Of a DNA stretch of 64,000 nt, positions 2,093-50,800 are shown piece after piece. The stretch's first letter is position 1; each line of letters begins with the position of its first letter. The notes under the pieces were generated by a model that did no database searches, was not told the origin of the DNA, and saw only the letters and a list, made by a program, of their open reading frames with translations. The DNA is from Squalus acanthias (Eukaryota): positions 122,700,001 through 122,764,000 of the forward strand of contig CM059431.1 in assembly GCA_030390025.1 (NCBI GenBank), given 5' to 3'. Both the position numbers and the translations under genes were made by a program.

Positions 2093-2149
2093 AAAGACAA
2101 TATTATGTTTGGTGCGCATGATATGCTGAAATTATGGCACTGCTATTAC

Positions 2150-2720
2150 TTTCTTGAAGAAAGATACATTTCTGCTCACTTGATGGAAACCTATTTGAGT
2201 AGCTAAAATTATCTGCAAATCACGGAGGAGATGACTGGTTTGTGTGAGGAAAGGTATTTGCTTTCCTCCCTGTTAGTTCTCACTCGGATTTGGTGATGCA
2301 GTTGATTTCACCAAGCTGGGCATGACACTTTCGATCATGATATCATCCTCAGTGACAGATAGTTCATGTCAACCTACCTGTAGTTGGCCTTCAATTTGTG
2401 CAATTGATTTGCGCGAGCATGCTACTTGCAGGGTACGATCCTGCTGTCTGGTTCGCTTGACATCAGCTCGAGTGATTGCCTGGGCTACACAATGTTGAAT
2501 TACAAAGTGAATGAATTCCTCAGCTCTCTCCGAATCATATGTTGTGACAGCAACTGGTGATTTAGTCAGTAGGATTATCAGAGTGAGGGAGATAGTCAAC
2601 AATCATGTTGTAAGACTGGACTTTCTCAACCAGAATTGAAAAAGGTTTTGGCAGTGACTTGGGGAATAAGGGAATCAAAGGCTTGTGTTCTGTAAATTGT
2701 CATGCACCAATGTAGAGATA
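2150..2720 (-). pseudogene. Ancient Ty3/Gypsy pol relic (RNase H end, linker, integrase C-terminus)
   Basis: TEHKPL...YNMIVDY..DNPTD*; AEEFIHFV..AIT..VK..D.TLQ; HELSVTED; SRNVSFFKK. Confidence 0.7.
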
Positions 2721-17410: not shown

Positions 17411-19474
17411 TTACCTTTCCAATCTTTCAAGGTAAGTTGAATGCTTTCCAATTGAAGCAGAATCCTAGCACAGCTGGCGTTTATAGGATATTAATCCATT
17501 GTTTGTTTAATCGAAAATAATCTGAACGTGTTTCTGTATTATCATGACTCATGTGTTCTTATTTGTGAGGCCTGTATTGAAGTTCTTTTATATTTAGCTA
17601 TGATTGCCTGGGATACGCTGACAGATGAAAAAGCCAGAGTAATGACAATCCATTTAAATGCAAGATATTAGAATTAAGCTCATCCTCTCTCTAATTTCTT
17701 GCCAATCGGGTGATCATATTCTTTCGTTAAGATGAATTATTAAAACATTTTATCTGTTCTGAAGAAGAATGATTTTGGGACTCTTAGGAGGATTGCTGAA
17801 AATAGGCAATTTAATCTTGGTTTGACTGACATTTTGATAGCATCTACTTTGCCTCATAGGAATAATGAAAGAAAGTTTCATCTCCACAGGTCACTTTCAA
17901 TTTTGTCGAGAAAGACTACTATCATTGATTTTAATTGTGCAAATAGGATGGAAGGGACTATAATTCTCAGATGTTTAAGAGTTATTTTAGACCTTTGAAA
18001 AAGAGGGGAAATATGGTTAAAACACATTTTTAAGATTTAAGAGCATCAGATTTATCTCAATTAATGGACTCAAAAATAGCTAATGATACTAGCAGTCTCC
18101 ATGGCTTTACTCATGGTGAGTTAGAAGATAGCTTACATAATGATAAAAACATGCTACCACATACCACAAGTATATAATGGGGCACGAGTAGTTAAGTGCT
18201 AAAGTGTATGATATTCCTTTCTCCACTATTTTGTTATTTTCATGGATAAAAAATCATGGGCAGCATATCCGCAATTTCTCAAAATGTGTGGCTGGTGAGG
18301 GAGAGTCCCCCCCAGTATCATGCATCAGTAAAATTAACCTTTCAATCTCTCTTCCTGCTTTTTTCTACTGTTTACTTTTTGTTGCTCTTTGCATCTTTAT
18401 CTTCCACCCTCTCTCTGTCTCTGTCTCCATGGCTGGCATACATTTTCACACCTATGTATCATTCTGTCCAATTTTTTTTTCAATATCTCTGTCTCATCCT
18501 TTCCATAAATCTTCCCTCTGTTTCCCTTTCTCTTTTTGTCTGTATCTAATGTCTTTGTATGGTTCTCACATATGTTCCTTTACTGATGTACTTCATATCT
18601 ATCTCTTACTTTTTTAAAGGCCTTGGGTATAAAGGAAGATTAAATATTCAGTTACAGGTGGAGGTGGGAAGAGGCTATCAGAGAGATGTTGCAACATGGG
18701 CCGTTGAGAAAAAAAAGGGGAGGTTGGGGGCCAGGCTAGGAGAATTGGTGGGAGAAATGCTGCGGCCTGGAGGAAGCAACAAAGTTGGGATTGGATCATG
18801 GGAGGAGATAAGTGGAGGAACTGGGAAGAGGAAAGTACCTGCGAGTCATCATGGTGGAAGTTTGGGGTCTGGCAACATTCAGTGGGACATTCAGGAGGAT
18901 GAGATAAGTTGGGGTGATTGAGTTGTGGCAGCACTGATGGGGCAATGTCAGCTGGAGTATGAGATTGTTTGTGAGGCCTAGAGTACTGGGGAGAGGAGGC
19001 TAGTGTTGGAGGTCCTGAGTGGACAGGAGCTTGGAGATCTGGGAGAACTAGAGGAGTTGGAGTCCATGAGCAGTTATACAGAGCTTGGGGGCTGGGAACA
19101 CTGTGAGGGGCTGAGAGATGGGACCAATACAGGTGAGAGACAGGGACTGAGACTACTAAGGGATAGAAAGAGGTTGGCAAATGCAGTCCAGGACACATGG
19201 CTGGGCCCTGATTACTGGCCCGTGTTTGGTTGGGCCCACACCCAGAAATAGACCACAGTTGTTGACCAGAAGCTAGGTACATAGAAGTGACATTCTAGAG
19301 CATGGAGTAGTGTTGGATAGTGTGCAAGAAGCACCACAGGGAAGACACAGCTAAAGAGGTTTTTCAATGGAGAGTGGGGCAGAGGCCACCTCATCTCTTG
19401 GGAGGGGCTAACCGGTAAGCACAACTAATTTTGTGGAGCAAAATCCTAAATGGAAATGGAAAATAAAATGGAAA

Positions 19475-21350
19475 ATCTCATAAAAACTGACTGTAAAAGC
19501 TTCTACAGATATGTGAAGAGAAAAAGATTGGTGAAGTCAAACGTAGGTCCCTTGCAGTCAGAATCAGGGGAATTTATAATGGGGAACAAAGAAATGGCAG
19601 ACCAATTAAATGCATACTTTGGTTCTGTCTTCACAAAGGAAGACACAAATAACCTCCCAGAGATGTCGGGGAACATAGGGTCTAATGAGAGGGAGGAACT
19701 GAATGAAATCAGTATTTGTAGGGAAATGGTATTAGGGAAATTGAAGGGATTGAAGGCCGATAAATCCCCAGGGCCTGATAATCTACATCCTAGGGTACTT
19801 AAGGAAGTGGCCCTAGAAATAGTAGATGCATTGCTGGTCATCTTCCAAAACTCTATAGACTCTGGAACAGTTCCCATGGATTGGAGGGTAGCTAAAGTAA
19901 ACCCACTATTTAAAAAAGGTGGTAGAGAGAAAATGGGGAATTACAGACCGGTAAGCCTGACATCGGTAGTGGGGAAAATGCTAGAGTCCATTACAAAAGA
20001 TGTAATGGCAGAGCACTTGAAAAACAGTGACAGGATCGGACAAAGTCAACATGGATTTACAAAAGGTAAATCATGCTTGACTAATCTACTGGAATTTTTT
20101 GAGGATGTAACTGGTAGAATAGATAAGGGAGAACTAGTGGATGTGGTGTATTTGGACTTTCAGAAGGCTTTTGATAAGGTCCAGCATAAGAGATTAGCGT
20201 GCAAAGTTAAAGCACATGGGATTGGGGATAAGGTACTGACTTGGATAGAAAACTGGTTGGCAGACAGGAAGCAAAGAGTTGGAATAAACGGGTCTTTTTC
20301 CGAGTGGCAGGCAGTGACTAGTGGGGTACCGCAGGGATCGGTGCTAGGACCCCAGTTATTCACAATATATATAAATGATCTAGACGAGGGAACTAGATGT
20401 AATATCTGCAAGTTTGCAGACGACACAAAGCTGGGTGGGCATGTGTGCTGTGAGGAGGATGCAGAGAAACACCAGTTTGATTTGGACAGGTTGGGTGATT
20501 GGGCAGATGCATGGCAGATGCAGTATAATGTGGATAAATGCGAGGTTATCCACTTTGGTGGCAAAAACAGGAAGGCAGATTATTATCTGAACGCCAATAG
20601 ATTGGGAAAAGGGGAAGTGCAGCAAGACCTGGGTGTCCTTGTGCACCAGTCGCTGAAGGTAAGCATGCAGGTGCAGCAGGCGGTTAAGAAGGCAAATGGT
20701 ATGTTGGCCATCATAGCGAGAGGATTCGAGTACAGGAGCAACGATGTCTTGCTGCAGTTGTACAGGGCCTTGGTGAGACCACACCTTGAGTATTGTGTGC
20801 AGTTTTGGTCGCCTTATCTGAGGAAGGATGTTCTTGCCATGGAGGGAGTGCAGCAAAGATTCACCAGACTGATACCTGGGATGGCAGGAATGACGTATGA
20901 AGAGAGATTGGGTCGATTGGGCTTGTATTCGCTAGAGTTTAGAAGAATGAGAGGGGATCTCATTGAAACTTATAAAATTCTAACAGGACTAGACAGACTA
21001 GATGCAGGCAGGATGTTCCCGATGACGGGGGAGTCCAGAACCAGGGGTCATAGTCTAAAGATAAGGGGTAAACCATTTAGGACTGAGATGAGGAGGAATT
21101 TCTTCACCCAGAGAGTGGTGAACCTGTGGAATTCTCTACCACAGAAGAGAGTTGAGTCCAATTCATTAAATATATTCAAGAAGGAGTTAGATATATTTCT
21201 TAATGCTAAAGGAATCAAGGGATATGGGGAGAAAGCAGGGACAGGGTACTGAATTTGGATGATCAGCCATGATCGAATTGAATGGCGGAGCAGGCACGAG
21301 GGGCCGAATGGCCTACTCCTGCTCCTATCTTCTATGTTATGTTTCTATCA
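19475..21350 (+). mobile_element. CR1 LINE, 5'-truncated, with uninterrupted RT ORF to 21252
   Basis: ~590 aa open RT and C-terminal domain, no endonuclease; CR1 3' UTR and CTATG-type tail. Confidence 0.96.
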
Positions 21351-37990: not shown

Positions 37991-39714
37991 TGTAAGGGAT
38001 TCCTGACCCTGCGTGTCTCGCAGCCTGTGAGATTCACGCGGCTCTGTGCAGCCTGTATGTCAGTGCGGGTCTAGGCCTGGTTGCCTGTTCTGGTCTCCAG
38101 CCAGTCTGGGAACACTAGACACACCTGTGAGTGGTTCGAATCACTCTCCCTTACGGTTCTAGACACTGGACTTAGATGCGAGAGCAGTAATGGAGATAAA
38201 ACTCATGTAGACTCGGTTTGAATGGTACGAAATGGAAAATCTTTATTGCATGATACTTAAAATTATGAAATACATGTCATAAGCACAGATTAATGACAGT
38301 ACAATCTTACAAACAGTTATATAGTCGATCTTAGGGAAACGAGGAACGAACGGCACAACGTAAATAGGGGCACACATTACAAATATCCTTAATCTTTAAA
38401 CCCTCCCCTATCAATATCTATCCTAAACTAGCTTCGTAGGATCTCGAGACTCATGCTCACCACTCGTGATAACTCGGAGAAATTCCGAATAGCTGATCGG
38501 ATGTTTTTCACCGCAGCACCCACGTGTCGGTCAGGAGATCTCCTGGTCCCACTTGTTTACTTGCTTCTGCTGCTTCGGCTAGTAGGCTGGACCGTCTGCT
38601 GTGATGAAGACCTGTGTTGGTTGGTTTAACAGGTACTCTTGGAGCACCGTTGTCAATATCATCGATACGATGTGTTTTCACGTTCCAACCTCCTTAGACA
38701 CAGTCCCGTTATCGTCGATGCAATATGTTTTGTTAGAAGTTTAAAGAAAACTTCCTGGCGAGAAACTTGGCTGATCGACCTACAGGCGCGGTCGGGATTT
38801 ACTGACCGTGGCGATGGATATGGTCTTCTTCTCTTCTCCTCTCATCTCATCTCATCTCATCTCATCTCGGGCCTTTGGTTCCGCTGCCAGTTACCAACAT
38901 AGGTCTTCGTTACGCGACATGAGGTAGATCCGAACGGATCAGAAAGTTCAACAGTCTTTTTCAGAAGAGGCAACAGGCAAGCAGAAGCCCAACTACGAGT
39001 ACACAGGAGCAGCCACGAGGTTACGAATCGACCGGATAAAACACAGGAGCAAGCGAGCGAACGCAGGAGCAAGAGCAAGAGAGAGAATGGACGGTTTGGA
39101 GCCTGCAATTATAGTGCAAAAATCTTCCATTTCCCGCCCAACTATAATGTCCATTCTTTTGTTTAGGGTTTGGCGCCCAAATGTCTTGTATGGGTGATCT
39201 CCGTTCTTAATGGGTTTCGGGGCTACTCATGAATGTTTGAGTACCCGTTAATATTTCTCCCATTGTTAAATCGGTCGGTGTTCTCCCTGGAGGGGTTTGG
39301 GGCTTCCAAGTGTCCTGTATAACTACCTGCTAACGGCTCTCTCATCGTAGAGTCGTTGGGAGTTTACATATTAATGTCCTTTGGATGGGCCCTTGAGTAC
39401 TCGGTACAATGGCTTTCCTTTGTACCTGGGAGACCGATTCCAGTATCTATGTTTATACTGCAAACCCATAATGTCTCGTGTATTATCTTCACTGTGCTGA
39501 ATCGTTATCGATCTTGCACAAATGTTTAATGGAACGCCATCTTGTCTGCCTGTTGAAAAGTCTAGAATGTTCTGTCACGAGGTGCGGCGGCCATTTTACA
39601 GGCTGCTTGTGTCCAATTTAAACCTGCCAGCATTCTGCTGAAATAAAAGCTGTTTGAACGAAACTTTGTGTTTTCTCCTTATTAATCAAATCGCGATATA
39701 TTGCGAATTCTACA
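37991..39714 (-). repeat. 3' LTR (1724 bp)
   Basis: Matches the 5' LTR except at 38920/50006 and 39092/50178 (by eye); preceded on the minus strand by a purine-rich tract. Confidence 0.97.
38242..38247 (-). promoter_or_regulatory. Candidate polyadenylation signal in the 3' LTR (5' LTR copy at 49328-49333)
   Basis: AATAAA on the minus strand, ~250 nt before the LTR end. Confidence 0.6.
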
Positions 39715-39726
39715 GTCCCTCCTGTT
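39715..39726 (-). promoter_or_regulatory. Polypurine tract
   Basis: AACAGGAGGGAC directly abutting the TGTA start of the 3' LTR. Confidence 0.7.
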
Positions 39727-40138
39727 GATGCGAATAACTCCGCTTATCGTATCAAAAATCACAGTGGTGAGCAATCTTATCTCGATTTCACTCCGAATCC
39801 AGTAAATTAATCCCATAATTTTTAACTTAACTAGGGTCTCTGTGTCGTCCTTATTTCCCAAGAAAATCACATTTTATATCACCGTAGGCATCATTTGCCC
39901 TTAAACTTACACCACTTGTTTTCCTTCCCGGCGTAACCAGGCCGATACCTCACGCATCACCTGTATATTTGTCTTTTATTCAGGGAAAGGAAAAAACAAA
40001 ACCCAAAACCAAACAATCAACACCATCACCAAAATAATCAAACCCCAACTCTTAAAACATGTCGAGTTTCCAACGTATTTACAATGAGTACAAACTTCCG
40101 CGGCGCACGCGGCGAGCGGGAGTGACGCCATTTTCCGA

Positions 40139-42490
40139 TTACACGGTGCTCTCATCGTGCACGCGCACGTAACGTTCTCGCCACTCTCCCGTGTTTTCAT
40201 GCTTGGTGAGGCGCTTGTCTCTTTTACAATGTATGACCAATAGGTACACTACAATAAACACTTGACAGACGACTAAAATGTGGGAGGCTATTCTGATCCA
40301 TGAAGGCACTTCAATATTCGTGAACAGATTCCACCACGGTGGAACCACTATGTCCAGAATGTCTGTTCCTATTTCGACAGTTTTCTGCTCTAATGTATAA
40401 AAATGTTTCTGTGATACCGCGACGGCTTTCAGAAGTTTGGTTAAATGCTCAGGGAGAGGGGGAATGAGGTATCCAAAATGCGCGACAAATCGCTGCAAGT
40501 CGGTGAAATTCTCTTTTACTGTGAGATGAACAGTGGATGGTTCAGGGATTGGGATAATTCGCTGTTGTGCTACTTGAACTTCAGCCCTGGGTTTAAAACA
40601 GAAACTGCTGTCACTCACCGGACACCGGCTACGGTTTCCATGCTGGTAGTGTTGCGCTGCAGTGGTAACACAATATGTTCCACCCCCGATGTATGCTACC
40701 TGCGGAGGCACATGATCTTGTGCCATTGCCTCCATGGTGCAATTCATGGACTTGGCGCCAGCCGTTCTGAACCCGCACTGTGGTGTTAAAAAGGCATTCA
40801 AGTGCTGGGGGCACAGTATTATGTGTGCTCCCCTGCCACGACAACCAGAGAGATCTGTACCTGTCATCGTTTGCTCCCAGCGGATGACGTAAGGTGGAAC
40901 TGCTGCATAACGAATGTGGGCTCCCCCCTGAATGACACCAATGTTCTCTACCCGATACACCGGGGCGGGCTTTGCTGTGTTGCCCAAAACCGGCATGCGT
41001 AATACTATTCCCATAATAGTATGGTTTGAACGTCCGCAGTCCACGGGGACTGGGTAAGCTTCTGAAGCTAGCCTGAGCTGGCACGGACTTAATGCGTTCT
41101 GAAAAGGGTGGAGCGCCCGCAGGTGTTTGTTACTTATCCAGGACGGAACCAAACCTTGTTTTAAATCCTCCAAATTACTGCGGCCCTCGCCCAGTAACCA
41201 CGCCCCGTAAAGCACGCACACCTCGTTCTGCGCAGCTTGATCGGATGCATTCCGATCTTCCCTGATCAGGGCATTTACCGTACGCGCATGTTTCTCCAGC
41301 TCTGCTATAATTTCCTTTAAATGGAGAGTCATGGCTTGGTCCTCGTGTAGACCTGACCCTACCACTTTATTCTCATCTGTTAGAATGTCTTTTAACTGTG
41401 TTTTTAAACCATTAATCTGGGTCTGCAGCTCCACACTGTCTAGAGCGTTGACCACAGATGTCCCTGTGTTAAAAGCAGTGAACGCATCGTTCACCAAACC
41501 CCTTCTTTGCCTCCCTACTTGATCCAAAACTTCCTGCGGTGCGGTGTACAAACTTGTCTTATCAATTTCTGCAAAATCAAACTCGTAAAATTGTCTGAAC
41601 ATCTTGGTCAACAGGACCTGATACAACTGTTCCGTCTTTTTGGGGCACCACTCTGGTAACCGCACCTCAGTGAGATTTAAAATCACCGAGGCCACCGCGT
41701 AATGTACCCCCTGAAATAGTATCTGGTCTGTGGGGACCAGTACCAAACCGTTCCCGGGTCCCTTACTAGTTTTAGGGCACCCTTCTTCCTCAGCTAGAAC
41801 CACCGGAATCGTGGGCGGGGCTTTGCGTGGGCGCGTAATGAGCTCAGTGGCATTTACTGGGATCGGGGAGAATGGGGCTCCGCACCCCCTGGTGCTCGCA
41901 TCCCACCTCATCCCCTGTCCGTTATCCTGCCATTGATTAATAAAAAATATGGAGATGCCTTTGGGGCAAACGTACTTTGACCCCCACATACATACATAAA
42001 TCCCCTCATCCGGTTCCCACCATTTGTCCCAACAGACTTTCACTTGTCCGTCTGTCCCCGTAATTGTCCGATGGGTATTATTACCCAGTCGTTCCCACTC
42101 GACCGAAGAGTTTCTCATAGTTTTGCTCAGCTTTCGCAGCCACCACCATCGGCTCAATGGGACATTCCCACTACAGGTCAAACAAATCCGTTTGCCGACG
42201 GTGACGCTGATCCTGGGTGCGATGATCCTTACTTTGGGGCACATTAAAGAAGTCTCTTTGTAGGCAAACCCCGATGTGCTGGAATACTCCGTTGAGTTCG
42301 TTCCCAGCCATCCTGGCCACCTTCCCTTGTGGAAATAGGTGCTGGTCCCCTCTGCCTTCCGTCTTCCGGTCCCATCCACCGCGATGGGGGCCGTGTCCCC
42401 GGAACATCCAAACACCACGACATCCTTGGTGTGGCCTCGATAGGCCAATCCACATCCGATTGCCACGAGCAATACTAGAATTCGTTCCAT
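40139..42490 (-). CDS. env: Env, class I fusion glycoprotein (783 aa from the signal-peptide Met)
   Basis: Signal peptide MERILVLLVAIGCGLA with strong Kozak context (AGGATGG); furin site RQRR (41501-41512); fusion-peptide-like segment and heptad repeat; Cys-rich region; several NxS/T sequons; transmembrane helix ~40227-40290; short tail. Confidence 0.92.
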   Translation of the reverse strand: MERILVLLVAIGCGLAYRGHTKDVVVFGCSGDTAPIAVDGTGRRKAEGTSTYFHKGRWPGWLGTNSTEYSSTSGFAYKETSLMCPKVRIIAPRISVTVGKRICLTCSGNVPLSRWWWLRKLSKTMRNSSVEWERLGNNTHRTITGTDGQVKVCWDKWWEPDEGIYVCMWGSKYVCPKGISIFFINQWQDNGQGMRWDASTRGCGAPFSPIPVNATELITRPRKAPPTIPVVLAEEEGCPKTSKGPGNGLVLVPTDQILFQGVHYAVASVILNLTEVRLPEWCPKKTEQLYQVLLTKMFRQFYEFDFAEIDKTSLYTAPQEVLDQVGRQRRGLVNDAFTAFNTGTSVVNALDSVELQTQINGLKTQLKDILTDENKVVGSGLHEDQAMTLHLKEIIAELEKHARTVNALIREDRNASDQAAQNEVCVLYGAWLLGEGRSNLEDLKQGLVPSWISNKHLRALHPFQNALSPCQLRLASEAYPVPVDCGRSNHTIMGIVLRMPVLGNTAKPAPVYRVENIGVIQGGAHIRYAAVPPYVIRWEQTMTGTDLSGCRGRGAHIILCPQHLNAFLTPQCGFRTAGAKSMNCTMEAMAQDHVPPQVAYIGGGTYCVTTAAQHYQHGNRSRCPVSDSSFCFKPRAEVQVAQQRIIPIPEPSTVHLTVKENFTDLQRFVAHFGYLIPPLPEHLTKLLKAVAVSQKHFYTLEQKTVEIGTDILDIVVPPWWNLFTNIEVPSWIRIASHILVVCQVFIVVYLLVIHCKRDKRLTKHENTGEWRERYVRVHDESTV

Positions 42491-42775
42491 CCTTCCTTGG
42501 TTCCTGTGATCAGATAGAATGAGGTAGCCAGCCTCGCAAAAGTCTCTGGCTTTTGTGAAGGGTGAGCGGGTCCCCTGACCTCGCCTCACGTAAACTTCAA
42601 CGTTCGCTGCATAGACTTCCTCTAAACCTAGCCTTAAAACTCCCATCATTTTATCGTTTTCTGTTAAAAACACTACAAACTTAGCCTTATTAAAACTTAA
42701 AACTTAACCTTGACACTACAAACTTAAACTTAACCTAATAACTTTACAGTGCCGCCCGTTCTCAGGGCGGCCCCT

Positions 42776-45700
42776 TTAAACTCTGAGAAGGCTGCTGCGA
42801 GCTCTTCCCGACGGTGGGAGGGCACTGACCCTTCCCTCTGATCTGCCGCAGCCTGTTACTGCTGCGATGTGGCCTGTCTGTACCCGGGTTATCTTAACCT
42901 GAAGTCTACGCCTTGGGGCAGTCTGGGGACATGACCACATCCTCCTGGGCTGGGGTTCTCTACTTGACCTACGGGGAGTTGCTATGGGCGGGGGTTCCGT
43001 GACGGACGGACCGGGTTCCGAGACCTCCAACGGGATGACCTGGGGTTCCATCACAGTCGCCGGCTCCGCCTCCGCTGACTCCGCCTCCCTAACCTCGGGG
43101 CTGGCAGTTCGTGGCTCCGCCCTGCTCGGCCCAGCAGGCGGCCCTTCACTCGTGATCTCTGCCTCCCCTGAGGACTGGACGTTCAAAGCGGGCGGCCACA
43201 TCTCTGGGAGCCACATTGGTACTCTCTGTGCTCCTATAGCGGCTGGCCCTGCCTCCTCTAGCTCCTCTCTCCTGTCCTCGGGACCTGCAGCTTGTGTGTC
43301 CACCCTGTGTGGATCTCTACCTATAGGCCCCATTCCCCCCAGACCGTTCCTCAGGAACCACCCGTCATCATCACTATGCTCATCTGCACTATCCTCATCT
43401 GACCAGGGTACCCTGGGTTCTTCCTCATCTAACCCCCAACTCCAGAAAAACGCTGCATGATCGTCCGGGATGTCCCTTCCCCTGATGCAAGCTGCTATGC
43501 CTGCCTGTGTGCCTTGTGGTCCTACCTGGGGCTGTGCTTTCCCATTGGCGGGATTTGCCCCTGTAGTTTTCCCCTGCGCACCCGGCTGGTACAGTTTGCA
43601 TTGATTTATGTGGAACCACTTAGTGCGCCGAGGTACTTTTACGGCGTAAACCATGGGACTCGCCTTGTCTACAATGTTGTAGGGTCCCATATACAGTGGT
43701 TCCAGACTCCCTACTCTGGCGTAGTTTCTGACCATGACCTGGTCTCCTACTTCCCACTCCCGCGTTTTGCGGGGTTCCAGCAACAAGCGATTGCCCTGAT
43801 GCTGCCTTCCCATGTTCCCAGCCGCCTGCTCATAAACTTGCTTCAGGCGCTCCAAGAGAGTCTGGGCGAACTTGTCCCTGCTTATCTCTTGGAGCTGACC
43901 CTCAGTGAGCACCGGGGCTAGCACATGGGTGGGGGTTCGCATGAGCCTGCCGGTCATTACCTCGTGCGGGGAGTACCCCGTACTTTTTGACTGACTGGCC
44001 CGGACCCCCATGAGGACTAAAGGCAGAACTTCCGCCCATTTTTGGGGCGAGTTCCTAGTCTCTTTCCTCAATTTCTCCTTCAGGGTCCGGTTCATACGTT
44101 CAACAATCCCGGATGACTGGGGATTGTGTGCTACGTGCCACTTCCCTTCAATGCCCAAAAGCATGAGGGTGTTCTGCATCACCTGGCCGGTGAAATGACT
44201 CCCTTGGTCTGACTCCACGAAACGGGGGAGTCCCCACCGCGAGAACACTTCCCGGACCAAGATTTTTGCTGTACCCAGTGCCGTAGCTGTTCGACAAGGG
44301 AAGGCTTCCACCCACTTGGAAAACACATCCACCAGGACGAGGCAGTACTTATAACCTCCCTGGGTGGTGGGCAGGGGTCCTATATAGTCGATCTGTATCG
44401 ACTGCCATGGTCCCTCTACCCTTCTTACGTGTCCCATGGGCACCTTCCTTTTCTGGGGGTCTGGGTTGTTTGCAGCGCACACAAGACAGTTTGCACAGAA
44501 CTCGCGGACTTGTTCCCTGAGCCCTGGCCACCATCCCGCTTGCTCTACCCGTTGCCAGGTAACCTCGGGCCCGGGGTGCCCTGCCCCTGGTCCCTCGTGA
44601 GCCAACTGGAGGAATTCCCTCCTGTGCTGCTGCGGCACAACCCACTGCTCCCCGCGGAACAGCATGCCTTCCTTAACTGAGAGGGTTGCCGTACTGTACG
44701 GACCCTCTACCTGCCTCCCCTCAGCAATCGTTTTTAGGACTGCTTTTAGGGCGGGATCCTGGGCTTGGACGGTCTTAAGGTCTAGGGGCAATGCTACCCT
44801 GGTGTTCCCGGTATTCCCGTCCCCGCCTCGGACCGCTGCTATGGGTCCGGTCCTATAGGGGTTCCAGAAAGTGCCGTCGCGGGCACCCTCCCTGGCTAGC
44901 GCATCCGCCTGCCGGTTGCCCTCCCCACGGGGCTCTGTGGAGGAGTGAGCTTTCACCTTATGGATGAAAATCTCTCCTTCCTCCCCTACTGCTGCTGCTA
45001 AGATCTTTTCCAGCAAGGGCTTCACCGTTAAAGGTCGCCCGTCCGCGGAGGTGTATCCGCGGCGGGACCAAATGGCCAGGTATTCCGTACACGAATTGCA
45101 GGTGAACATACTGTCCGAGCAAATCGTGTATGGGGTTGGGAAAATGTCTGGGTGGGTCACCACGTACACCACGGCAGACAGCTCAGCCTGCTGCGCACTC
45201 ATGGTGCTAGGGAGCTTGATCGCCAGGGCAAGGTCTGCCGCAGGGTCATAAACTCCACACCCTGTGAGTCGCTCGCCAGCAGACACTGTGCTAGACCCAT
45301 CAACATAAATCTCGCGCCCAGTGGGATGTATCCCGGCCCGTAAACCTATGTTGACGTCCCACACCCCTTCCACTGAACACCGGTGGGCTGTACCGGGGTA
45401 TACCAAATTGGCCGCAAGCCTGGGCTCGCAAAGACCTTTTACTCTAAGATCCAACTGGGAGAGAAGAAGGGTCCAACGCGCAATGCGTGCGCTGCTTACG
45501 GTCCCGTCTTTAATCCTCCCATCCAGAAGCATCTTAGTTGGTGTGTGATGTGTGAGGAGAGTGATGGGAGAGAGCCCTGTGAAGATCGCTGATCTTTTCA
45601 CAGCCCAATGCGTGGCTAAAAGGTGCCTTTCGCAATTGGAGAAACTTCTCTCCACATCCGTTAATACCCTGGATGAATAGACAACCGGCCTCAGCTTGCC

Positions 45701-47260
45701 GTGACGCTCTTGGAGCAGCACGGCGCTTAAGCTGTCTCCGCTGGCAGCTACCTCCAGGAAAAACTCCTTCCCCCCATCTATGGCCCCTAAGGCTGGCGCG
45801 GTCTGCAGATCCCTTTTTAACTTCTCGAAGGCTGCTTGGCAGCCCTCGTCCCAAAGCCACTCCACCCCCTTATGGAGGAGTCGGAGGAGCGGCGCCGCTG
45901 TGGCCGCATAATCTTCGATAAAATCCCTGCAGTAACCGGTCAGTCCCAAGAAGGACCTCACACCCCTTACGTTGTTGGGAATCGGTAATTCTTGCACCGA
46001 CTCCCTCCTTGCTTTGTCTATGGCTCTTTCCCCAGCGCGTAGGGTCAGTCCCAGGAATTTTACTTCCTGCTGACCGATACGTGCTTTCTTAGGGTTTACT
46101 TTAAAACCCTTTCTCGCTAACAGCTCCAATAACTCGTCCAGTAGTGGTCCGTGCTCCTCCCTTGAGTCCGTAAATAGGAGCAAATCATCCACATACTGTA
46201 CTATCTGATTGGGCTGACTAAACTCCTTTAAACTTCCTGCCATACACTGATGAAAAATACTGGGGCTATTGTGGAAACCCTGTGGCAAACAGTTCCACGT
46301 GTACTGTTGCCCTTTGAACGTAAAGGCAAACTTGTACTGGTCCTCTCGCCGCAGCGGGATGGACCAAAAACCGTTCGAGATATCCAGCACCGTGAACGTG
46401 GTCGCGGACGCTGGGATGCTCCCTATTAGGTCAGCAACTGCTGCTACTGTGGGCGCGCAGGCGGGAATGTTACTGTTAAGGACTCTGTAGTCCACCGTGG
46501 CTCTCCACGAATTATCCGGCTTCCTAACCGGCCATAATGGGGAGTTCACGTGTGTGGCTATCGGCCTCAACACGCCCTGCTGCACCAAGGAAGACATTGC
46601 TGTCTCCATATCGGGTTCTGCTTCTTTGGGGAAGTTATACTGCTTTTGGGGTCGGGTCATGGGGTCCCCATCTACGCTGACCTCAAACCCGACCACTCTC
46701 CCACAATCGTGCTTGTGGGTTGCAAACGCGTGCATATTATCTGACACGTACGTTTGCATGTCCGTTGGGACATCTGCGACCATAAGCCTGAGGTCGTAGC
46801 CTCCAGATGGCTGTACGGTACACAGGACCCCTGTTTCTTCCTCCCCCGGAATCACCATTACCTCGCCTTTTTCACCTTTAGCCCCCCAGAGACAGTGATT
46901 TCTGAGGTCCACGAGGATCCCGTGTCCCGCTAGGAGATCGGACCCGAGAATACCTCTTCCACCCCCCTTTTGCCATGCCATCAATATGCACTTCCACTTA
47001 AGGCGAAGTGTTCCTAAACGAATGGATAGCGGAAGGGAAAACGTGCCAGCCTGTTCTTTTCCTGTGAACCCTGCCAACGTGAATGGGACCTTGGTAGATA
47101 GCGGCGAGTCAAAAGGGTTATCTGTATGGATTATGGTGCAAGAAGCTCCCGTGTCCAACAAATAACTGCCCTTCTGTTTCTCTACCTCCATCTCCACCAC
47201 AGGTCGCCTCCACGCATCATAGCTGAGCGGACACAGGTAGACGGGCTGTGCTGGTTCTAG
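42776..47260 (-). CDS. pol: Pol: protease - RT - degenerate RNase H (tether) - RNase H - integrase - C-terminal extension
   Basis: LLDTGAS (~47150); LPQGFHNSP and YVDD (46184-46195); tether EVAAS...VVYSSRVL; RNase H YVDGS/AQQAEL/SDS/KVKAHS/NRQAD; HHCC zinc finger; IDYIGP, SDQG, VERMNRTLK; GPY. Confidence 0.97.
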   Translation of the reverse strand, partial: LEPAQPVYLCPLSYDAWRRPVVEMEVEKQKGSYLLDTGASCTIIHTDNPFDSPLSTKVPFTLAGFTGKEQAGTFSLPLSIRLGTLRLKWKCILMAWQKGGGRGILGSDLLAGHGILVDLRNHCLWGAKGEKGEVMVIPGEEETGVLCTVQPSGGYDLRLMVADVPTDMQTYVSDNMHAFATHKHDCGRVVGFEVSVDGDPMTRPQKQYNFPKEAEPDMETAMSSLVQQGVLRPIATHVNSPLWPVRKPDNSWRATVDYRVLNSNIPACAPTVAAVADLIGSIPASATTFTVLDISNGFWSIPLRREDQYKFAFTFKGQQYTWNCLPQGFHNSPSIFHQCMAGSLKEFSQPNQIVQYVDDLLLFTDSREEHGPLLDELLELLARKGFKVNPKKARIGQQEVKFLGLTLRAGERAIDKARRESVQELPIPNNVRGVRSFLGLTGYCRDFIEDYAATAAPLLRLLHKGVEWLWDEGCQAAFEKLKRDLQTAPALGAIDGGKEFFLEVAASGDSLSAVLLQERHGKLRPVVYSSRVLTDVERSFSNCERHLLATHWAVKRSAIFTGLSPITLLTHHTPTKMLLDGRIKDGTVSSARIARWTLLLSQLDLRVKGLCEPRLAANLVYPGTAHRCSVEGVWDVNIGLRAGIHPTGREIYVDGSSTVSAGERLTGCGVYDPAADLALAIKLPSTMSAQQAELSAVVYVVTHPDIFPTPYTICSDSMFTCNSCTEYLAIWSRRGYTSADGRPLTVKPLLEKILAAAVGEEGEIFIHKVKAHSSTEPRGEGNRQADALAREGARDGTFWNPYRTGPIAAVRGGDGNTGNTRVALPLDLKTVQAQDPALKAVLKTIAEGRQVEGPYSTATLSVKEGMLFRGEQWVVPQQHRREFLQLAHEGPGAGHPGPEVTWQRVEQAGWWPGLREQVREFCANCLVCAANNPDPQKRKVPMGHVRRVEGPWQSIQIDYIGPLPTTQGGYKYCLVLVDVFSKWVEAFPCRTATALGTAKILVREVFSRWGLPRFVESDQGSHFTGQVMQNTLMLLGIEGKWHVAHNPQSSGIVERMNRTLKEKLRKETRNSPQKWAEVLPLVLMGVRASQSKSTGYSPHEVMTGRLMRTPTHVLAPVLTEGQLQEISRDKFAQTLLERLKQVYEQAAGNMGRQHQGNRLLLEPRKTREWEVGDQVMVRNYARVGSLEPLYMGPYNIVDKASPMVYAVKVPRRTKWFHINQCKLYQPGAQGKTTGANPANGKAQPQVGPQGTQAGIAACIRGRDIPDDHAAFFWSWGLDEEEPRVPWSDEDSADEHSDDDGWFLRNGLGGMGPIGRDPHRVDTQAAGPEDRREELEEAGPAAIGAQRVPMWLPEMWPPALNVQSSGEAEITSEGPPAGPSRAEPRTASPEVREAESAEAEPATVMEPQVIPLEVSEPGPSVTEPPPIATPRRSSREPQPRRMWSCPQTAPRRRLQVKITRVQTGHIAAVTGCGRSEGRVSALPPSGRARSSLLRV

Positions 47261-49072
47261 TCATGGGGCACTATTAGACGGTCCTGCGGCACCTACGGGG
47301 CCGGTTGCGACCGCCACCTGTCCACGCGCATTCAAAACCAGCTTGCGCATGGCTCCTAACACTGCTTCGAGGTCGTCGGGAGGGGTGGGTGCCTTGGCTT
47401 CCTTAGCCGGGACAGGCGCCTGGGCTCGGACCGCGGGATTTTTATCCTTGGAATCCTTCCAAGGGTTCCTGCAGTGCTTGCGCCAGTGCCCTGTCTTCCC
47501 ACACCCGTAACAAGCATTACTGGCTTGTGGGACGCGATTTCCCTCCTGATGCCACTCCTTTTGAGCCGGGGCTGCGGGTCGTACCTCATGTACTCTTCCC
47601 TTAAAGGGACGTGTCGTCATACCCCTTATATTACGATAACCTAACGTGAGTCGATTCAAGACCGACTCTTCCGTAAGGTTGAGGTCATTGGGATCGAACC
47701 AGGCTTTTGCCCGCTCTCTAACGGCTGGTAAACTGTTGGCTATTATGCACCTAAGCCAATGAGTTAGAGCGGCGCCTTCCACATCTTCGCGCTCGGGCGC
47801 ACCTAGACAGCTGCGCTCATATACTGGCCACAGCCTGTCGGCAAAAACCTTCGGGGGTTCTCCCTCCATCTGCACTGTCTGTCCCACTCTAGCAAACGGA
47901 CCTCCGTCGTTCGCCCCCAACACTTCTAGGACCTCATTTTTTAATTCCTCATAACTTTTGTTTCCCCTCTTGCTCTCGCCTGAGAGACACTGAAGGACCG
48001 AGCTGTCTAATGAGAACAGCAGCATTTTTGCTGTCTCCCCATCATCGCAGCCGTTAATGGCTGCGGCTTGCTCAACTTCCCTGAAATGTACGGAAGGGTC
48101 GTCTATCTCGGTCAGCTTCCGTACGTGATTTATCATAGCTCTCAGCTGATGTGAACTGTGAGGCAACACCAGCTGTCCGAGGAGATCCCCCGGTTCTTCC
48201 CCACCGTTTCTGCTTGGGCCCCTTTTAATACCCGTTACTGGATACAACGATCCCTTTTCTGCTTCCTTTTCAATGGGCCTTTTCGTTTCTTCCATTGCTT
48301 CCTCCCTAACCCAGGTTTCTGAATAGCTGGGTGGCGCGGAGGGCGCAGTGGCTACTACTTCTTCTGCTTTACTTGGTGGGGATTTTCTAAATCTCTCATT
48401 TACTAGCGGCTGGTGCGCCGACGGATTGATAAGGCACACCATGCCGTTCGCATTGTTCACGGCCTTTTTGAGGCTCTCTATCTCCCTTTGGCAGGCGCTA
48501 TGGTCGGCTCCCTGAAACTTATCCTCAAGGGCCAACTTATACGCCGACCTAACCCCCATTAAGCTCTCTTCTTGAGTTCTTATCTGGGCAGCTTGGCGGT
48601 TACATCTTTCCTTTAACCTGCTCTCATTCAATTTTGCCTCAGTGACCTGGCACTCGAGATAATCTATCCTTGTCTTAAGGTGACTGGAGACTTCCTGGCT
48701 TTCCTGGTGTAACTCATTTAAATTCTTAATGAGCACCTCCCCTCCAGAAACCTTCTCCTCCATTTCTCCCTCTAAATGACTGATTCGAGCTGTTAGCGCT
48801 GTAATGGTCTGGTTTGAAATCTGAACCTGCCTTTTGTAGCACATAAGCCAGACTGCTTTCTCAACTGTCTTTTTATGTTCCTTACTATCTGTCCACCTTT
48901 CAGCTGCCTCTAGTGGGCTCTTATCCGCTAACAATTCACTTATCCACTTCTTAGTTAGATTAACCTTTCCAAACACATAATCCGCTATCTTTTCCTGCAT
49001 AACATTTCGTACAGTCATTCCAAAATCTAACACACTACCCTCTCGCTGCCAGTGTCCTGCCGCGGTCGCCAT
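47261..49072 (-). CDS. gag: Gag (603 aa from the first ATG): coiled-coil N-terminal half, late-domain motifs, capsid-like region, one CCHC zinc knuckle
   Basis: Open ORF; CYGCGKTGHWRKHC at 47471-47512; PSAPPSY at 48323-48343; position between PBS and pol. The ORF-track start at 49123 is a GTG inside the LTR. Confidence 0.92.
   Translation of the reverse strand: MATAAGHWQREGSVLDFGMTVRNVMQEKIADYVFGKVNLTKKWISELLADKSPLEAAERWTDSKEHKKTVEKAVWLMCYKRQVQISNQTITALTARISHLEGEMEEKVSGGEVLIKNLNELHQESQEVSSHLKTRIDYLECQVTEAKLNESRLKERCNRQAAQIRTQEESLMGVRSAYKLALEDKFQGADHSACQREIESLKKAVNNANGMVCLINPSAHQPLVNERFRKSPPSKAEEVVATAPSAPPSYSETWVREEAMEETKRPIEKEAEKGSLYPVTGIKRGPSRNGGEEPGDLLGQLVLPHSSHQLRAMINHVRKLTEIDDPSVHFREVEQAAAINGCDDGETAKMLLFSLDSSVLQCLSGESKRGNKSYEELKNEVLEVLGANDGGPFARVGQTVQMEGEPPKVFADRLWPVYERSCLGAPEREDVEGAALTHWLRCIIANSLPAVRERAKAWFDPNDLNLTEESVLNRLTLGYRNIRGMTTRPFKGRVHEVRPAAPAQKEWHQEGNRVPQASNACYGCGKTGHWRKHCRNPWKDSKDKNPAVRAQAPVPAKEAKAPTPPDDLEAVLGAMRKLVLNARGQVAVATGPVGAAGPSNSAP
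49054..49071 (-). promoter_or_regulatory. Primer-binding site, tRNA-Arg(UCG)
   Basis: Minus strand TGGCGACCGCGGCAGGAC, 5 nt after the 5' LTR; complementary to the 3' end (GUCCUGCCGCGGUCGCCA) of vertebrate tRNA-Arg-TCG as I recall that sequence. Confidence 0.88.
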
Positions 49073-49076
49073 TTTC

Positions 49077-50800
49077 TGTAAGGGATTCCTGACCCTGCGT
49101 GTCTCGCAGCCTGTGAGATTCACGCGGCTCTGTGCAGCCTGTATGTCAGTGCGGGTCTAGGCCTGGTTGCCTGTTCTGGTCTCCAGCCAGTCTGGGAACA
49201 CTAGACACACCTGTGAGTGGTTCGAATCACTCTCCCTTACGGTTCTAGACACTGGACTTAGATGCGAGAGCAGTAATGGAGATAAAACTCATGTAGACTC
49301 GGTTTGAATGGTACGAAATGGAAAATCTTTATTGCATGATACTTAAAATTATGAAATACATGTCATAAGCACAGATTAATGACAGTACAATCTTACAAAC
49401 AGTTATATAGTCGATCTTAGGGAAACGAGGAACGAACGGCACAACGTAAATAGGGGCACACATTACAAATATCCTTAATCTTTAAACCCTCCCCTATCAA
49501 TATCTATCCTAAACTAGCTTCGTAGGATCTCGAGACTCATGCTCACCACTCGTGATAACTCGGAGAAATTCCGAATAGCTGATCGGATGTTTTTCACCGC
49601 AGCACCCACGTGTCGGTCAGGAGATCTCCTGGTCCCACTTGTTTACTTGCTTCTGCTGCTTCGGCTAGTAGGCTGGACCGTCTGCTGTGATGAAGACCTG
49701 TGTTGGTTGGTTTAACAGGTACTCTTGGAGCACCGTTGTCAATATCATCGATACGATGTGTTTTCACGTTCCAACCTCCTTAGACACAGTCCCGTTATCG
49801 TCGATGCAATATGTTTTGTTAGAAGTTTAAAGAAAACTTCCTGGCGAGAAACTTGGCTGATCGACCTACAGGCGCGGTCGGGATTTACTGACCGTGGCGA
49901 TGGATATGGTCTTCTTCTCTTCTCCTCTCATCTCATCTCATCTCATCTCATCTCGGGCCTTTGGTTCCGCTGCCAGTTACCAACATAGGTCTTCGTTACG
50001 CGACACGAGGTAGATCCGAACGGATCAGAAAGTTCAACAGTCTTTTTCAGAAGAGGCAACAGGCAAGCAGAAGCCCAACTACGAGTACACAGGAGCAGCC
50101 ACGAGGTTACGAATCGACCGGATAAAACACAGGAGCAAGCGAGCGAACGCAGGAGCAAGAGCAAGAGAGAGAATGGATGGTTTGGAGCCTGCAATTATAG
50201 TGCAAAAATCTTCCATTTCCCGCCCAACTATAATGTCCATTCTTTTGTTTAGGGTTTGGCGCCCAAATGTCTTGTATGGGTGATCTCCGTTCTTAATGGG
50301 TTTCGGGGCTACTCATGAATGTTTGAGTACCCGTTAATATTTCTCCCATTGTTAAATCGGTCGGTGTTCTCCCTGGAGGGGTTTGGGGCTTCCAAGTGTC
50401 CTGTATAACTACCTGCTAACGGCTCTCTCATCGTAGAGTCGTTGGGAGTTTACATATTAATGTCCTTTGGATGGGCCCTTGAGTACTCGGTACAATGGCT
50501 TTCCTTTGTACCTGGGAGACCGATTCCAGTATCTATGTTTATACTGCAAACCCATAATGTCTCGTGTATTATCTTCACTGTGCTGAATCGTTATCGATCT
50601 TGCACAAATGTTTAATGGAACGCCATCTTGTCTGCCTGTTGAAAAGTCTAGAATGTTCTGTCACGAGGTGCGGCGGCCATTTTACAGGCTGCTTGTGTCC
50701 AATTTAAACCTGCCAGCATTCTGCTGAAATAAAAGCTGTTTGAACGAAACTTTGTGTTTTCTCCTTATTAATCAAATCGCGATATATTGCGAATTCTACA
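49077..50800 (-). repeat. 5' LTR (1724 bp)
   Basis: Direct repeat of 37991-39714 at offset 11086; followed on the minus strand by the PBS. Confidence 0.97.
50194..50265 (-). promoter_or_regulatory. Candidate LTR core promoter (GC box plus TATA-like element)
   Basis: Minus strand GGGCGCCAAA...GGGCGGGAA...CTATAATT followed by a pyrimidine-rich, initiator-like tract. Confidence 0.45.

What the first reader, a model, noticed from the sequence alone, without database searches (positions are those of the whole stretch)
41975..42240. Immunoglobulin-like domain in the Env surface subunit
Seen: ISVTVGKRICLTC-SGNVPLSRWWW-...-PDEGIYVC, i.e. B-strand Cys, C-strand Trp and the D-x-G-x-Y-x-C F-strand motif, with the two Cys 61 residues apart. 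It lies between the signal peptide and a Pro-rich linker (RPRKAPPTIP) that precedes the F2-like part. Known: Ig domains occur in large DNA virus glycoproteins, and F-type fusogens usually depend on a separate attachment protein. Inference: a captured Ig domain may act as a built-in receptor-binding or immune-decoy module, a combination I do not recognise as described.
Basis: partly seen in the sequence, partly recalled or inferred. Interest (0 to 1): 0.9.

Follow-up and report, generated by a model that had tools for sequence, protein, structure and literature searches.

The report
Ig-like head on a retroviral envelope
A very young endogenous retrovirus in a cartilaginous-fish genome has an envelope protein whose outer part probably folds like an immunoglobulin domain, a conserved feature of this virus lineage that most likely binds the host cell.

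Summary
In Env (783 aa, minus strand 40139-42490) it runs B-strand Cys106, Trp115-117, DEGIYVC ending at Cys167, with 61 residues between the cysteines.

It is the only DxGxYxC in all six frames of the window. It is kept in relatives from a skate, a sawshark, a whale shark and a second subfamily in the same genome.

Every test points to an Ig-like fold, but each is weak:
- Pfam Ig_3 matches 7 of 12 relatives, all below the cut-off.
- hhalign against a host Ig profile gives P=0.0027, and 0 of 100 column permutations reach the score.
- AlphaFold2 puts strands at the expected Ig positions, but mean pLDDT is only 38.
- The structural neighbours of that model are Ig domains, at Z about 6.

The fusion core is related to foamy-virus Env (profile E=2.6e-6), which is F-like and already carries a built-in N-terminal receptor-binding domain.

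Distant Env relatives in sharks and frogs also have Ig-like N-terminal modules, and no host donor gene was found. So this is an old, inherited module, not a recent capture. It is most likely the receptor-binding head.

I found no paper describing it. It is a new variant of a known kind, of moderate interest.

The parts
37991..50800 (-). Complete LTR retrovirus-like provirus (5' LTR, gag, pol, env, 3' LTR), flanked by a 4-bp direct repeat CCAT
   Evidence: Two 1.72-kb direct repeats lie 11086 bp apart with 2 mismatches, have TG...CA ends and are flanked by CCAT on both sides.
37991..39714 (-). 3' LTR
49077..50800 (-). 5' LTR, followed on the minus strand by a PBS-like TGGCGACCGCGG...
47261..49072 (-). 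gag open frame. The first ATG lies inside the PBS-like stretch, so the true start is probably further downstream. It ends at a single stop in the same frame as pol.
   Evidence: Pfam gives only a weak zf-CCHC match, E=0.31.
42776..47191 (-). pol: protease (DTGA), RT, degenerate plus intact RNase H, integrase
   Evidence: Pfam RVT_1 9.6e-36, RT_RNaseH_2 1.9e-21, RNase_H 2e-19, Integrase_H2C2, rve. Best PDB matches are Ty3, MLV/XMRV and foamy PR-RT, and PFV integrase.
40139..42490 (-). env from the Met before the signal peptide: 783 aa plus stop. The open frame also holds an ATG 53 codons upstream, at 42649.
42434..42490 (-). Signal-peptide-like hydrophobic start, residues 1-19
   Evidence: Read from the sequence. 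No predictor was run.
42239..42433 (-). Conserved N-terminal segment, residues 20-84, with the invariant GRWPGWLG.NS..SS..F.Y block and C29 and C84
   Evidence: Invariant columns of alignment A1; coordinates.
41936..42238 (-). Ig-like domain, residues 85-185. Strands are at about 89-97, 101-107 (C106), 115-120 (W115-117), 132-135, 141-145, 149-155 and 164-168 (C167). A probable G strand is GISIFFIN.
41786..41935 (-). Linker, residues 186-235, with C203, the N213 glycosylation sequon and the Pro-rich RPRKAPPTIP (41804-41833)
41501..41785 (-). Segment in the F2 position, residues 236-330. It starts at the family-wide CP....GP.NGL motif and ends at the furin-type site RQRR (41501-41512).
   Evidence: Distant relatives begin to align at about residue 221-235. 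Consensus of A2. RQRR at 327-330. 'F2-like' is inferred from position only.
40142..41500 (-). Fusion (TM/F1-like) subunit, residues 331-783: fusion-peptide-like GLVNDAFTAFNTGTSVV, heptad regions, Cys-rich core, membrane anchor 731-753 (40232-40300), cytoplasmic tail
   Evidence: The family profile hits foamy-virus Env 8rm1/8rm0 at E=2.6e-6 and 1.6e-5. Coordinates.

Best explanation
**What the element is.** The window holds a very recently inserted retrovirus-like provirus: LTR-gag-pol-env-LTR on the minus strand.

**What Env is.** Its Env is a class I fusogen of the foamy-virus / paramyxovirus-F type.
- The precursor is probably cut after the signal peptide and again at RQRR330.
- The outer subunit (residues 20-330) then consists of a conserved N-terminal segment, one immunoglobulin-like beta-sandwich (residues about 85-185) with the canonical Cys106-Cys167 pair, a Cys- and Pro-containing hinge, and a short F2-like strand region.
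- The inner subunit (331-783) is the fusion machine.

**What the Ig-like domain does.** It is an inherited part of this Env lineage, not a fresh host exon. It most likely forms the membrane-distal head that binds a cell-surface receptor and so triggers refolding of the F-like core. This is the role the unrelated receptor-binding domain plays in foamy-virus Env.

**Shown:** the sequence motif, its conservation, the weak but consistent Ig signals, the homology of the core to foamy-virus Env, and the position of the module.

**Inferred:** the fold (about 80% likely), the two cleavages, the location at the tip of the trimer, and receptor binding.
For: **Motif and spacing.** Exact and unique in the window.

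**Conservation.**
- 11 relatives at 48-71% identity keep C103, C106, W116/117 and GxYxC.
- They come from Rhinoraja longicauda, Pristiophorus japonicus, Rhincodon typus, two unnamed records and a second subfamily of the same genome.

**Ig signal.**
- Pfam Ig_3 is the only family matched by more than one member: 7 of 12 members, best E=0.0085.
- hhalign against a profile of 30 host Ig exons gives 74 collinear columns at P=0.0027, and 0 of 100 permutations reach the score.
- For the language-model look-alikes, 9 of the ten best hits with a family are of the Ig clan, at scores 0.88-0.91.
- The AlphaFold2 model from a 12-row alignment has seven strands at the expected A-F positions, and its best pLDDT (50-61) lies there.
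- Foldseek's best rows are antibody V and other IgV-type chains, at E 0.03-0.19.
- The VIA-align wide search's top 50 are mostly Ig domains (titin, obscurin, CD79b, a skate IgNAR V, LAG3, NCAM2), at Z 5.2-6.2 with 70-93 residues aligned at 2.4-3.7 A.

**Lineage feature.**
- N-terminal modules of distant relatives also align end to end with the host Ig profile: shark group B at P=0.0063, frog group C at P=0.0028 and P0034 at P=5.4e-6 with probability 86%.
- P0013 is named 'Ig-like domain-containing protein' by UniRef.
- Module A aligns with module B over 99 columns at P=0.0027.

**Core type.**
- A profile of 14 family members hits foamy-virus Env gp130 (8rm1, 8rm0) at E=2.6e-6 and 1.6e-5.
- PMC11468914 describes that protein as F-like, with a receptor-binding domain in N-SU (passages).
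- A relative in the same genome gives a weak PF00523 match, E=0.036.

**Rate of change.** The Ig region is 60% identical to the second subfamily, against 74% for the fusion subunit. This is the usual pattern of surface against transmembrane parts.

**Function still needed.** All 57 scored copies of env in the genome are open and 99-100% identical.
Against: - No Pfam Ig family reaches its gathering score: 11-17 bits against 30.
- A profile of the 12 close relatives found no Ig chain of the PDB in the Ig region at E <= 10, and phmmer of whole Env found nothing at E <= 1.
- Both structure predictions have low confidence, with mean pLDDT 33.4 and 37.7. The fold searches therefore rest on an unreliable model.
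- Foldseek gave no match at E <= 0.001. All VIA Z values are under 8, which the tool says can reflect only a common arrangement.
- hhalign probabilities are low for groups A to C (11%, 6% and 11%), although the P-values are small.
- Receptor binding rests on position and analogy alone. No receptor, binding test or expression data exist here.
Confidence: 0.55

Rival explanations
1. The domain is Ig-like but does not bind the receptor. It could shield or clamp the prefusion trimer. It could also engage a host immune or adhesion molecule as a decoy or modulator, while another part of the outer subunit (the conserved segment 20-84 or the Cys-rich linker) binds the receptor.
For: - The segment 20-84 holds 10 of the 15 invariant columns of alignment A1, against 5 in the Ig part, so it could be the functional surface.
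- Ig domains in viral proteins often act in immune modulation (recalled, not tested).
- Nothing here shows binding.
Against: - The module sits in the same place as the receptor-binding domain of the related foamy-virus Env.
- N-terminal modules differ between clades while the core stays alignable, as expected for the part that sets receptor use.
Confidence: 0.2
2. It is not an Ig fold. A Cys/Trp-rich beta-rich domain of another kind carries a sequence pattern that merely resembles the Ig signature.
For: - All family-level scores are below threshold.
- The models have low confidence.
- Z is under 8.
- The region has eight cysteines, more than a plain Ig domain needs.
Against: - Five different kinds of test all point to Ig and to nothing else.
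- The alignment to the Ig profile is collinear over all strands.
- Three other, very divergent modules of the family give the same result, one of them at P=5.4e-6.
Confidence: 0.15
3. The domain is a recent capture of a host Ig-superfamily exon by this particular element.
For: The canonical Ig sequence signature is unusual for retroviral Env proteins (recalled). It suggests an ultimate cellular origin at some time.
Against: - It is present and collinear in relatives from four chondrichthyan sources and in a second subfamily at 48-71% identity.
- There is no host Ig-superfamily hit among the 49 matches in 1.84 billion representatives.
- The score against host Ig exons is only 19.5, with about 30% identity.
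- The identity profile is like that of the flanking Env parts.
Confidence: 0.05

Closest known systems
Foamy-virus Env gp130 (PDB 8RM0/8RM1; PMC11468914, passages read)
   Same: - The fusion subunit is sequence-related: the family profile hits it at E=2.6e-6 over about 180 positions, including the CC...C.C...CG Cys pattern.
- The outer subunit carries its own N-terminal binding module upstream of the F2-like part.
- It is cleaved at a furin-type site.
   Different: - There is no sign of a foamy-type leader peptide. The only two R-x-K/R-R sites are at 327 and in the tail.
- Pfam's foamy Env family did not appear at E <= 1.
- The N-terminal module is Ig-like and about 100 aa. From recall, not from the passages read, the foamy receptor-binding domain is larger and has a fold of its own.
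Lokiretrovirus Env (Wang and Han 2020, PMC7947760; passages read)
   Same: - It is a retrovirus-like element with a dual RNase H.
- Its Env has a signal peptide, a furin-type site, a fusion peptide, coiled coil and an anchor.
- It shows distant likeness to paramyxo/pneumovirus F0 (PF00523), seen here only in the relative L026 at E=0.036.
- Relatives occur in frogs.
   Different: - The window's own Env does not match PF00523 at E <= 1.
- The passages read name no cartilaginous-fish host and no Ig domain.
- The RT phylogeny that defines the group was not done here.
Host immunoglobulin-superfamily domains (Pfam Ig_3 / I-set / V-set)
   Same: - It has the B-strand Cys, C-strand Trp and DxGxYxC, with 61-residue Cys spacing.
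- It aligns collinearly to a profile of 30 host Ig exons.
   Different: - Scores are far below family thresholds.
- There is a 10-residue insertion between strands C and C'.
- There are extra cysteines (C103, C153, C175).
- No identifiable donor gene was found.
Ig-like receptor-binding parts of other viral glycoproteins (gammaretrovirus SU receptor-binding domain; herpes simplex gD core). Recalled, not tested here.
   Same: A beta-sandwich of the Ig type serves as the attachment module of an entry glycoprotein.
   Different: As far as I recall, those lack the canonical Cys-Trp-DxGxYxC sequence signature, and they sit on other kinds of fusion machinery.

Membership tests
Immunoglobulin-superfamily domain (Pfam clan Ig) | Cys on strand B and Cys on strand F about 55-75 residues apart | tested here: met
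   C106 and C167 are 61 apart. They are kept in 11 of 12 rows and in 9 of the 10 rows that cover them.
Immunoglobulin-superfamily domain (Pfam clan Ig) | Invariant Trp on strand C and D-x-G-x-Y-x-C on strand F | tested here: met
   The motifs are WWW115-117 and DEGIYVC161-167. W117 is invariant. GxYxC is kept in 9 of 10 rows, and the first position is D or E in 9 of 10.
Immunoglobulin-superfamily domain (Pfam clan Ig) | Score over the curated threshold of an Ig family model | tested here: not met
   Ig_3 scores 11.6-17 bits against a cut-off of 30. It matches 7 of 12 members at E <= 1, best 0.0085.
Immunoglobulin-superfamily domain (Pfam clan Ig) | Two-sheet beta-sandwich fold | tested here: inconclusive
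   AlphaFold2 places strands at the right positions, but mean pLDDT is 37.7. Foldseek E is 0.03-0.19 to IgV chains. VIA Z is 5.2-6.2 to Ig domains.
Foamy-virus Env (Spumaretrovirinae) | Homologous fusion subunit | tested here: met
   Profile A2 against 8rm1 and 8rm0 gives E=2.6e-6 and 1.6e-5.
Foamy-virus Env (Spumaretrovirinae) | Cleaved N-terminal leader peptide and a match to the foamy Env family model | tested here: not met
   There is no furin-type site upstream of residue 327. No foamy Env family appears among the Pfam matches at E <= 1.
Lokiretrovirus | Dual RNase H (degenerate tether plus intact RNase H) in Pol | tested here: met
   RT_RNaseH_2 scores 1.9e-21 at residues 447-535, and RNase_H scores 2e-19 at residues 627-770.
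Lokiretrovirus | Env with detectable similarity to fusion glycoprotein F0 (PF00523) | tested here: inconclusive
   The window Env has no match at E <= 1. The relative L026 in the same genome matches at E=0.036, with 12.8 bits against a cut-off of 29.8.
Lokiretrovirus | RT groups with lokiretroviruses as sister to the other retroviruses | not tested
   No reference lokiretrovirus sequences were at hand. By PDB matches, Pol lies about equally far from Ty3, MLV and foamy RT.

The most novel reading that the evidence does not exclude
An ancestor of this foamy/F-like Env lineage captured a cellular immunoglobulin-superfamily domain long ago and made it the receptor-binding head of the outer subunit. 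The head has since diversified in sharks, rays and frogs, and may have degenerated in one shark clade.

The lineage is still spreading by reinfection in a cartilaginous fish. This would be the first retroviral Env whose attachment module is a canonical Ig-superfamily domain. It would probably dock on an Ig-superfamily adhesion or immune receptor through Ig-Ig contacts.
Probability: 0.3. Interest if true: 0.7.

Novelty: new variant of a known kind. Interest (0 to 1): 0.55.

Why it matters
Little is known about how the deep-branching retroviruses of fishes and amphibians enter cells. Their Env proteins have so far been compared only through the fusion part.

If the outer head is an Ig-superfamily domain, three things follow:
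- It gives a concrete handle for finding the receptor: a small, soluble module that can be expressed.
- It adds a third kind of attachment solution to the foamy/F-type fusogen family. The other two are a separate attachment protein and the foamy receptor-binding domain.
- It documents an old exchange between host Ig genes and a retrovirus.

The element is also notable for being so young. Dozens of identical, open env copies suggest a lineage that was infectious very recently.

Tried and rejected
**Searches that found nothing useful**
- phmmer of Env against PDB sequences gave 0 hits at E <= 1.
- A profile of the 12 close relatives against PDB gave only a nanobody fragment, at E=0.25. It aligned to residues before the Ig region and I judged it chance.
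- The word-indexed homologue search added only 3 proteins, and its region search only 1.
- Earlier findings of this scan held nothing.

**Weak or failed tests**
- Single-sequence AlphaFold2 of residues 1-251 failed, with pLDDT 33.4.
- An HMM built from 30 host Ig exons gave only 2-12 bits on the Env modules. I used the profile-profile comparison instead.
- The alternative Cys-rich N-terminal module of Mustelus and Pristiophorus relatives (group E) shows no significant Ig signal, P=0.2. It does keep ICFTC...SLYVCF at similar spacing, and against module A it scores P=0.018. I therefore do not claim it is unrelated.
- Modules A-C, A-D, B-C, B-D and C-D are not detectably related to each other, P 0.13-0.41. 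A single origin of all the Ig-like heads is not shown.

**Expression**
- No RNA holder is listed.
- The one true RNA run laid (X15) placed 0 reads, which is no test.
- Contigs of X1, X3 and X10 cover the stretch, but their library type is unknown and no splice joint was seen.

**Not attempted**
- dN/dS was not computed. Close copies are identical, the next subfamily is too far for synonymous sites, and no DNA of the other species was at hand.

**Papers**
- PMC9972966 (cartilaginous-fish endogenous foamy virus) is not held. I saw it only as a reference in PMC11468914.
- I did not open the supplements of PMC7947760, and those of the bioRxiv preprints are closed. They could list cartilaginous-fish hosts or Env domain maps that bear on novelty.
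Full report
**What is there.** The finding lies in the env gene of a complete LTR provirus on the minus strand (window 37991-50800).
- Two 1.72-kb LTRs differ at 2 positions, end in TG...CA, and are flanked by the 4-bp repeat CCAT.
- Between them lie a gag frame (47261-49072) and then pol in the same frame behind a single stop.
- Pol carries protease, RT, a degenerate and an intact RNase H, and integrase.
- The env frame is 40139-42649, and its signal-peptide Met is at 42490.
- By PDB matches, Pol lies about equally far from Ty3, MLV/XMRV and foamy-virus RT. Its integrase is nearest to PFV integrase.
- The genome (3.7 Gb) holds many copies. All 57 env matches that were scored, out of 12,921 first-look candidates, are open and 99-100% identical over all 783 residues.
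- The nearest named proteins come from the skate Rhinoraja longicauda (75% identity) and the sawshark Pristiophorus japonicus, so the host is a cartilaginous fish.

**The observation.** It holds exactly.
- Residues 84-172 of Env (P0001) read CPKVRIIAPRISVTVGKRICLTCSGNVPLSRWWWLRK...VKVCWDKWWEPDEGIYVCMWGS.
- C106 and C167 are 61 residues apart. The signal-like peptide lies upstream and RPRKAPPTIP (220-229) downstream.
- DxGxYxC occurs once in all six frames of the 64-kb window, at this site.

**Is it an Ig domain? The sequence tests are weak but agree.**
- Pfam gives only Ig_3: E=0.029 on a 133-aa piece, 0.078 on residues 20-235 and 0.43 on whole Env, at 11.6-15.3 bits against a cut-off of 30.
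- Across the 12 members of alignment A1, Ig_3 is matched by 7 (best E=0.0085). No other family is matched by more than one member.
- I built an Ig profile from 30 Ig_3 exons of the host genome itself and compared it with the Env module alignment using hhalign.
  - 74 columns align collinearly from strand A' to strand F.
  - P is 0.0027 local and 0.00085 global, although hhalign's own probability is only about 10%.
  - None of 100 column permutations reached the observed score: 19.5 against a mean of 11.1, SD 2.6 and maximum 18.0. The reversed alignment scored 10.8.
- Language-model look-alikes of residues 80-185 are Ig clusters. Of the ten best hits with a family, 9 are of the Ig clan, at scores 0.88-0.91. 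That is a lead only.
- Against the Ig reading:
  - A profile of the 12 relatives found no Ig chain in the PDB for this region at E <= 10.
  - phmmer of whole Env against the PDB found nothing.

**Is it an Ig domain? The structure tests are also weak.**
- AlphaFold2 failed on the single sequence, with pLDDT 33.4. With the 12-row alignment it stayed poor, with mean pLDDT 37.7.
- The second model places seven strands at the positions expected for strands A to F, and its best confidence (50-61) lies there.
- Foldseek found no match at E <= 0.001. Its best rows are antibody V domains, NITR and CD79b, at E 0.03-0.19.
- The search that does not rely on Foldseek gave no Z of 8 or more. Its top 50 (Z 5.2-6.2, with 70-93 residues aligned at 2.4-3.7 A) are mostly Ig domains: titin, obscurin, CD79b, a skate IgNAR V domain, LAG3 and NCAM2. 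The tool warns that such Z values can reflect only a common arrangement.
- Taken together, I put the Ig-like fold at about 80%.

**Conservation and age.**
- The module is present and collinear in 11 relatives at 48-71% identity.
  - These are two Rhinoraja proteins and Pristiophorus and Rhincodon typus gene models.
  - They also include two unnamed records and five copies of a second subfamily in the same genome, where env follows integrase as it does here.
- Region by region, the Ig part is 73% identical to Rhinoraja, 65% to Pristiophorus and 60% to the second subfamily.
- The F2-position segment is 66-76% identical and the fusion subunit 74-84% to those relatives that cover most of each segment. 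The module therefore evolves with Env, somewhat faster than the fusion subunit.
- The exhaustive search of 1.84 billion representative proteins gave 49 hits at E <= 0.001.
  - Eight of them cover the N-terminal module. All eight are Env copies or gene models fused to Env.
  - No host Ig-superfamily protein appeared.

**Distant relatives.**
- Full-length relatives at 19-28% identity align only from about residue 221-235 onward. They are from Chiloscyllium punctatum, the frogs Pelodytes ibericus and Mantella aurantiaca, one unnamed record and one intact copy in this genome.
- Their own N-terminal modules also align end to end with the host Ig profile:
  - shark group B at P=0.0063;
  - frog group C at P=0.0028;
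  - P0034 at P=5.4e-6, with probability 86% and a Pfam V-set match at E=0.045.
- UniRef names the Chiloscyllium protein 'Ig-like domain-containing protein', and its look-alikes are again Ig clusters at 0.85-0.87.
- Module A aligns with module B over 99 columns at P=0.0027. The other pairs are not detectably related.
- A Mustelus/Pristiophorus group (E) has a Cys-rich head without a significant Ig signal, P=0.2.
- I built a tree of the Env core from 7 full-length rows. It left out the other proteins, most of them fragments.
  - The window's Env groups with the Mustelus protein (100/100) against groups B, C and D.
  - Ig-like heads therefore sit on both sides of the deepest split.
  - The Mustelus and Mantella branches are long, so this is only indicative.

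**What kind of Env.**
- A profile of 14 family members hits foamy-virus Env gp130 (8rm1 at E=2.6e-6, 8rm0 at E=1.6e-5) over about 180 positions of the fusion subunit, including a shared cysteine pattern.
- In the passages I read of PMC11468914, 8RM0 and 8RM1 are the pre- and post-fusion foamy Env. Its shaft resembles the F protein of paramyxo- and pneumoviruses, and its receptor-binding domain makes up much of the N-terminal part of SU.
- The window's own Env gives no PF00523 match. The relative L026 gives a weak one, E=0.036.
- Wang and Han (PMC7947760; passages) describe lokiretrovirus Env as F0-like. Their Env has a signal peptide, a furin-type site, a fusion peptide, coiled coil and an anchor. 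Their hosts run from lampreys to reptiles. The words cartilaginous, shark and immunoglobulin do not occur in that text.
- Here the furin-type site is RQRR327-330, followed by GLVNDAFTAFNTGTSVV, and the anchor is at 731-753.

**How it most likely works.**
- The outer subunit (20-330) is built from four parts:
  - a conserved segment (20-84);
  - the Ig-like domain (85-185);
  - a hinge with C203, a glycosylation sequon and the Pro-rich stretch (186-235);
  - the short F2-position segment (236-330).
- The inner subunit is the F/foamy-like fusion machine.
- By position, and by analogy with foamy Env, the Ig-like domain is the membrane-distal head that binds a receptor and releases the fusion subunit.
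- The position, the module's exchangeability between clades and its faster change are shown. The cleavages, the trimer-tip location and the binding are inferred.
- Rivals are a shielding or decoy role, a non-Ig fold, and a recent host capture. The evidence speaks against the last of these.

**Novelty.**
- I found no paper describing an Ig-type domain in such an Env.
  - No paper holds both 'lokiretrovir' and 'immunoglobulin'.
  - Two broader searches gave nothing pertinent in the 12 listed papers of each.
  - Neither 'immunoglobulin' nor 'Ig-like' occurs in the texts searched. The text was searched only for env, host and LTR terms. In the paper the Ig-like domains are those of CD4, not of Env.
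- The library lacks most subscription journals. I did not see the supplements, and PMC9972966 is not held.
- A database name ('Ig-like domain-containing protein') already marks one homologue.
- A built-in attachment module on an F-type core is known from foamy viruses. The Ig-type head on this core appears to be a new variant of a known kind.

Noticed in passing
window 37991-50800; G000-wide: The provirus is extremely young: 2 LTR differences in 1.72 kb. At least 57 env copies across many contigs are open and 99-100% identical. This points to very recent or ongoing amplification of an env-bearing element.
   Followed up: partly
window 47192-47263 (minus strand): gag and pol are in the same frame, separated by a single stop. 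23 codons then precede the first pol ATG, which itself lies 13 codons before the protease DTGA. This suggests Gag-Pol by stop read-through.
   Followed up: partly
window 49037-49076 (minus strand, next to the 5' LTR): A PBS-like stretch TGGCGACCGCGGCAGG... lies here. The first ATG of the listed gag frame lies inside it, so the true gag start is probably further downstream. The matching tRNA was not identified.
   Followed up: no
window 42491-42649 (minus strand): The env open frame holds an ATG 53 codons upstream of the signal-peptide Met. In the second subfamily (L013 and others) the frame opens only shortly before the hydrophobic start, so the extension is probably not used.
   Followed up: partly
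window 42356-42433 (Env residues 20-45): The segment right after the signal peptide (consensus TEESVVYGCSGG..PIVTTGGG) gave the only PDB profile hit. It matched the strand F / CDR3 / strand G end of a nanobody at E=0.25. The VIA alignments include model residues 11-19 in the sandwich. This may be chance, or a strand that completes the Ig-like domain.
   Followed up: no
P0012 (Mustelus asterias) and P0023 (Pristiophorus japonicus), N-terminal 130 aa: The alternative Cys-rich head still shows ICFTC ... SLYVCF at about 63-residue spacing, and P=0.018 against the window's module. It may be a degenerate Ig-like head and not a replacement.
   Followed up: partly
window 40100-49300 in runs X1, X3, X10: Near-identical contigs occur in runs labelled with five organism codes. 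In X1 and X3 (library type unknown) depth over env is about 3-6 times that over pol, and highest at the LTR edge. In X10 it is roughly flat. No splice joint was seen. This is not evidence of expression.
   Followed up: no
window 12864-13616 (+) and 19450-21252 (+): Two further open frames with reverse-transcriptase domains (RVT_1 at 1.5e-27 and 4.9e-33) belong to other retroelements. A 222-aa frame at 18614-19282 (-) has no Pfam match.
   Followed up: partly
L026 (G000:C4:121881432-121886423), positions 1189-3540: This is an intact 784-aa Env of the distant Chiloscyllium-like group in the same genome. Most other copies of that group carry stops. Several Env lineages with Ig-like heads therefore coexist in this host.
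   Followed up: partly
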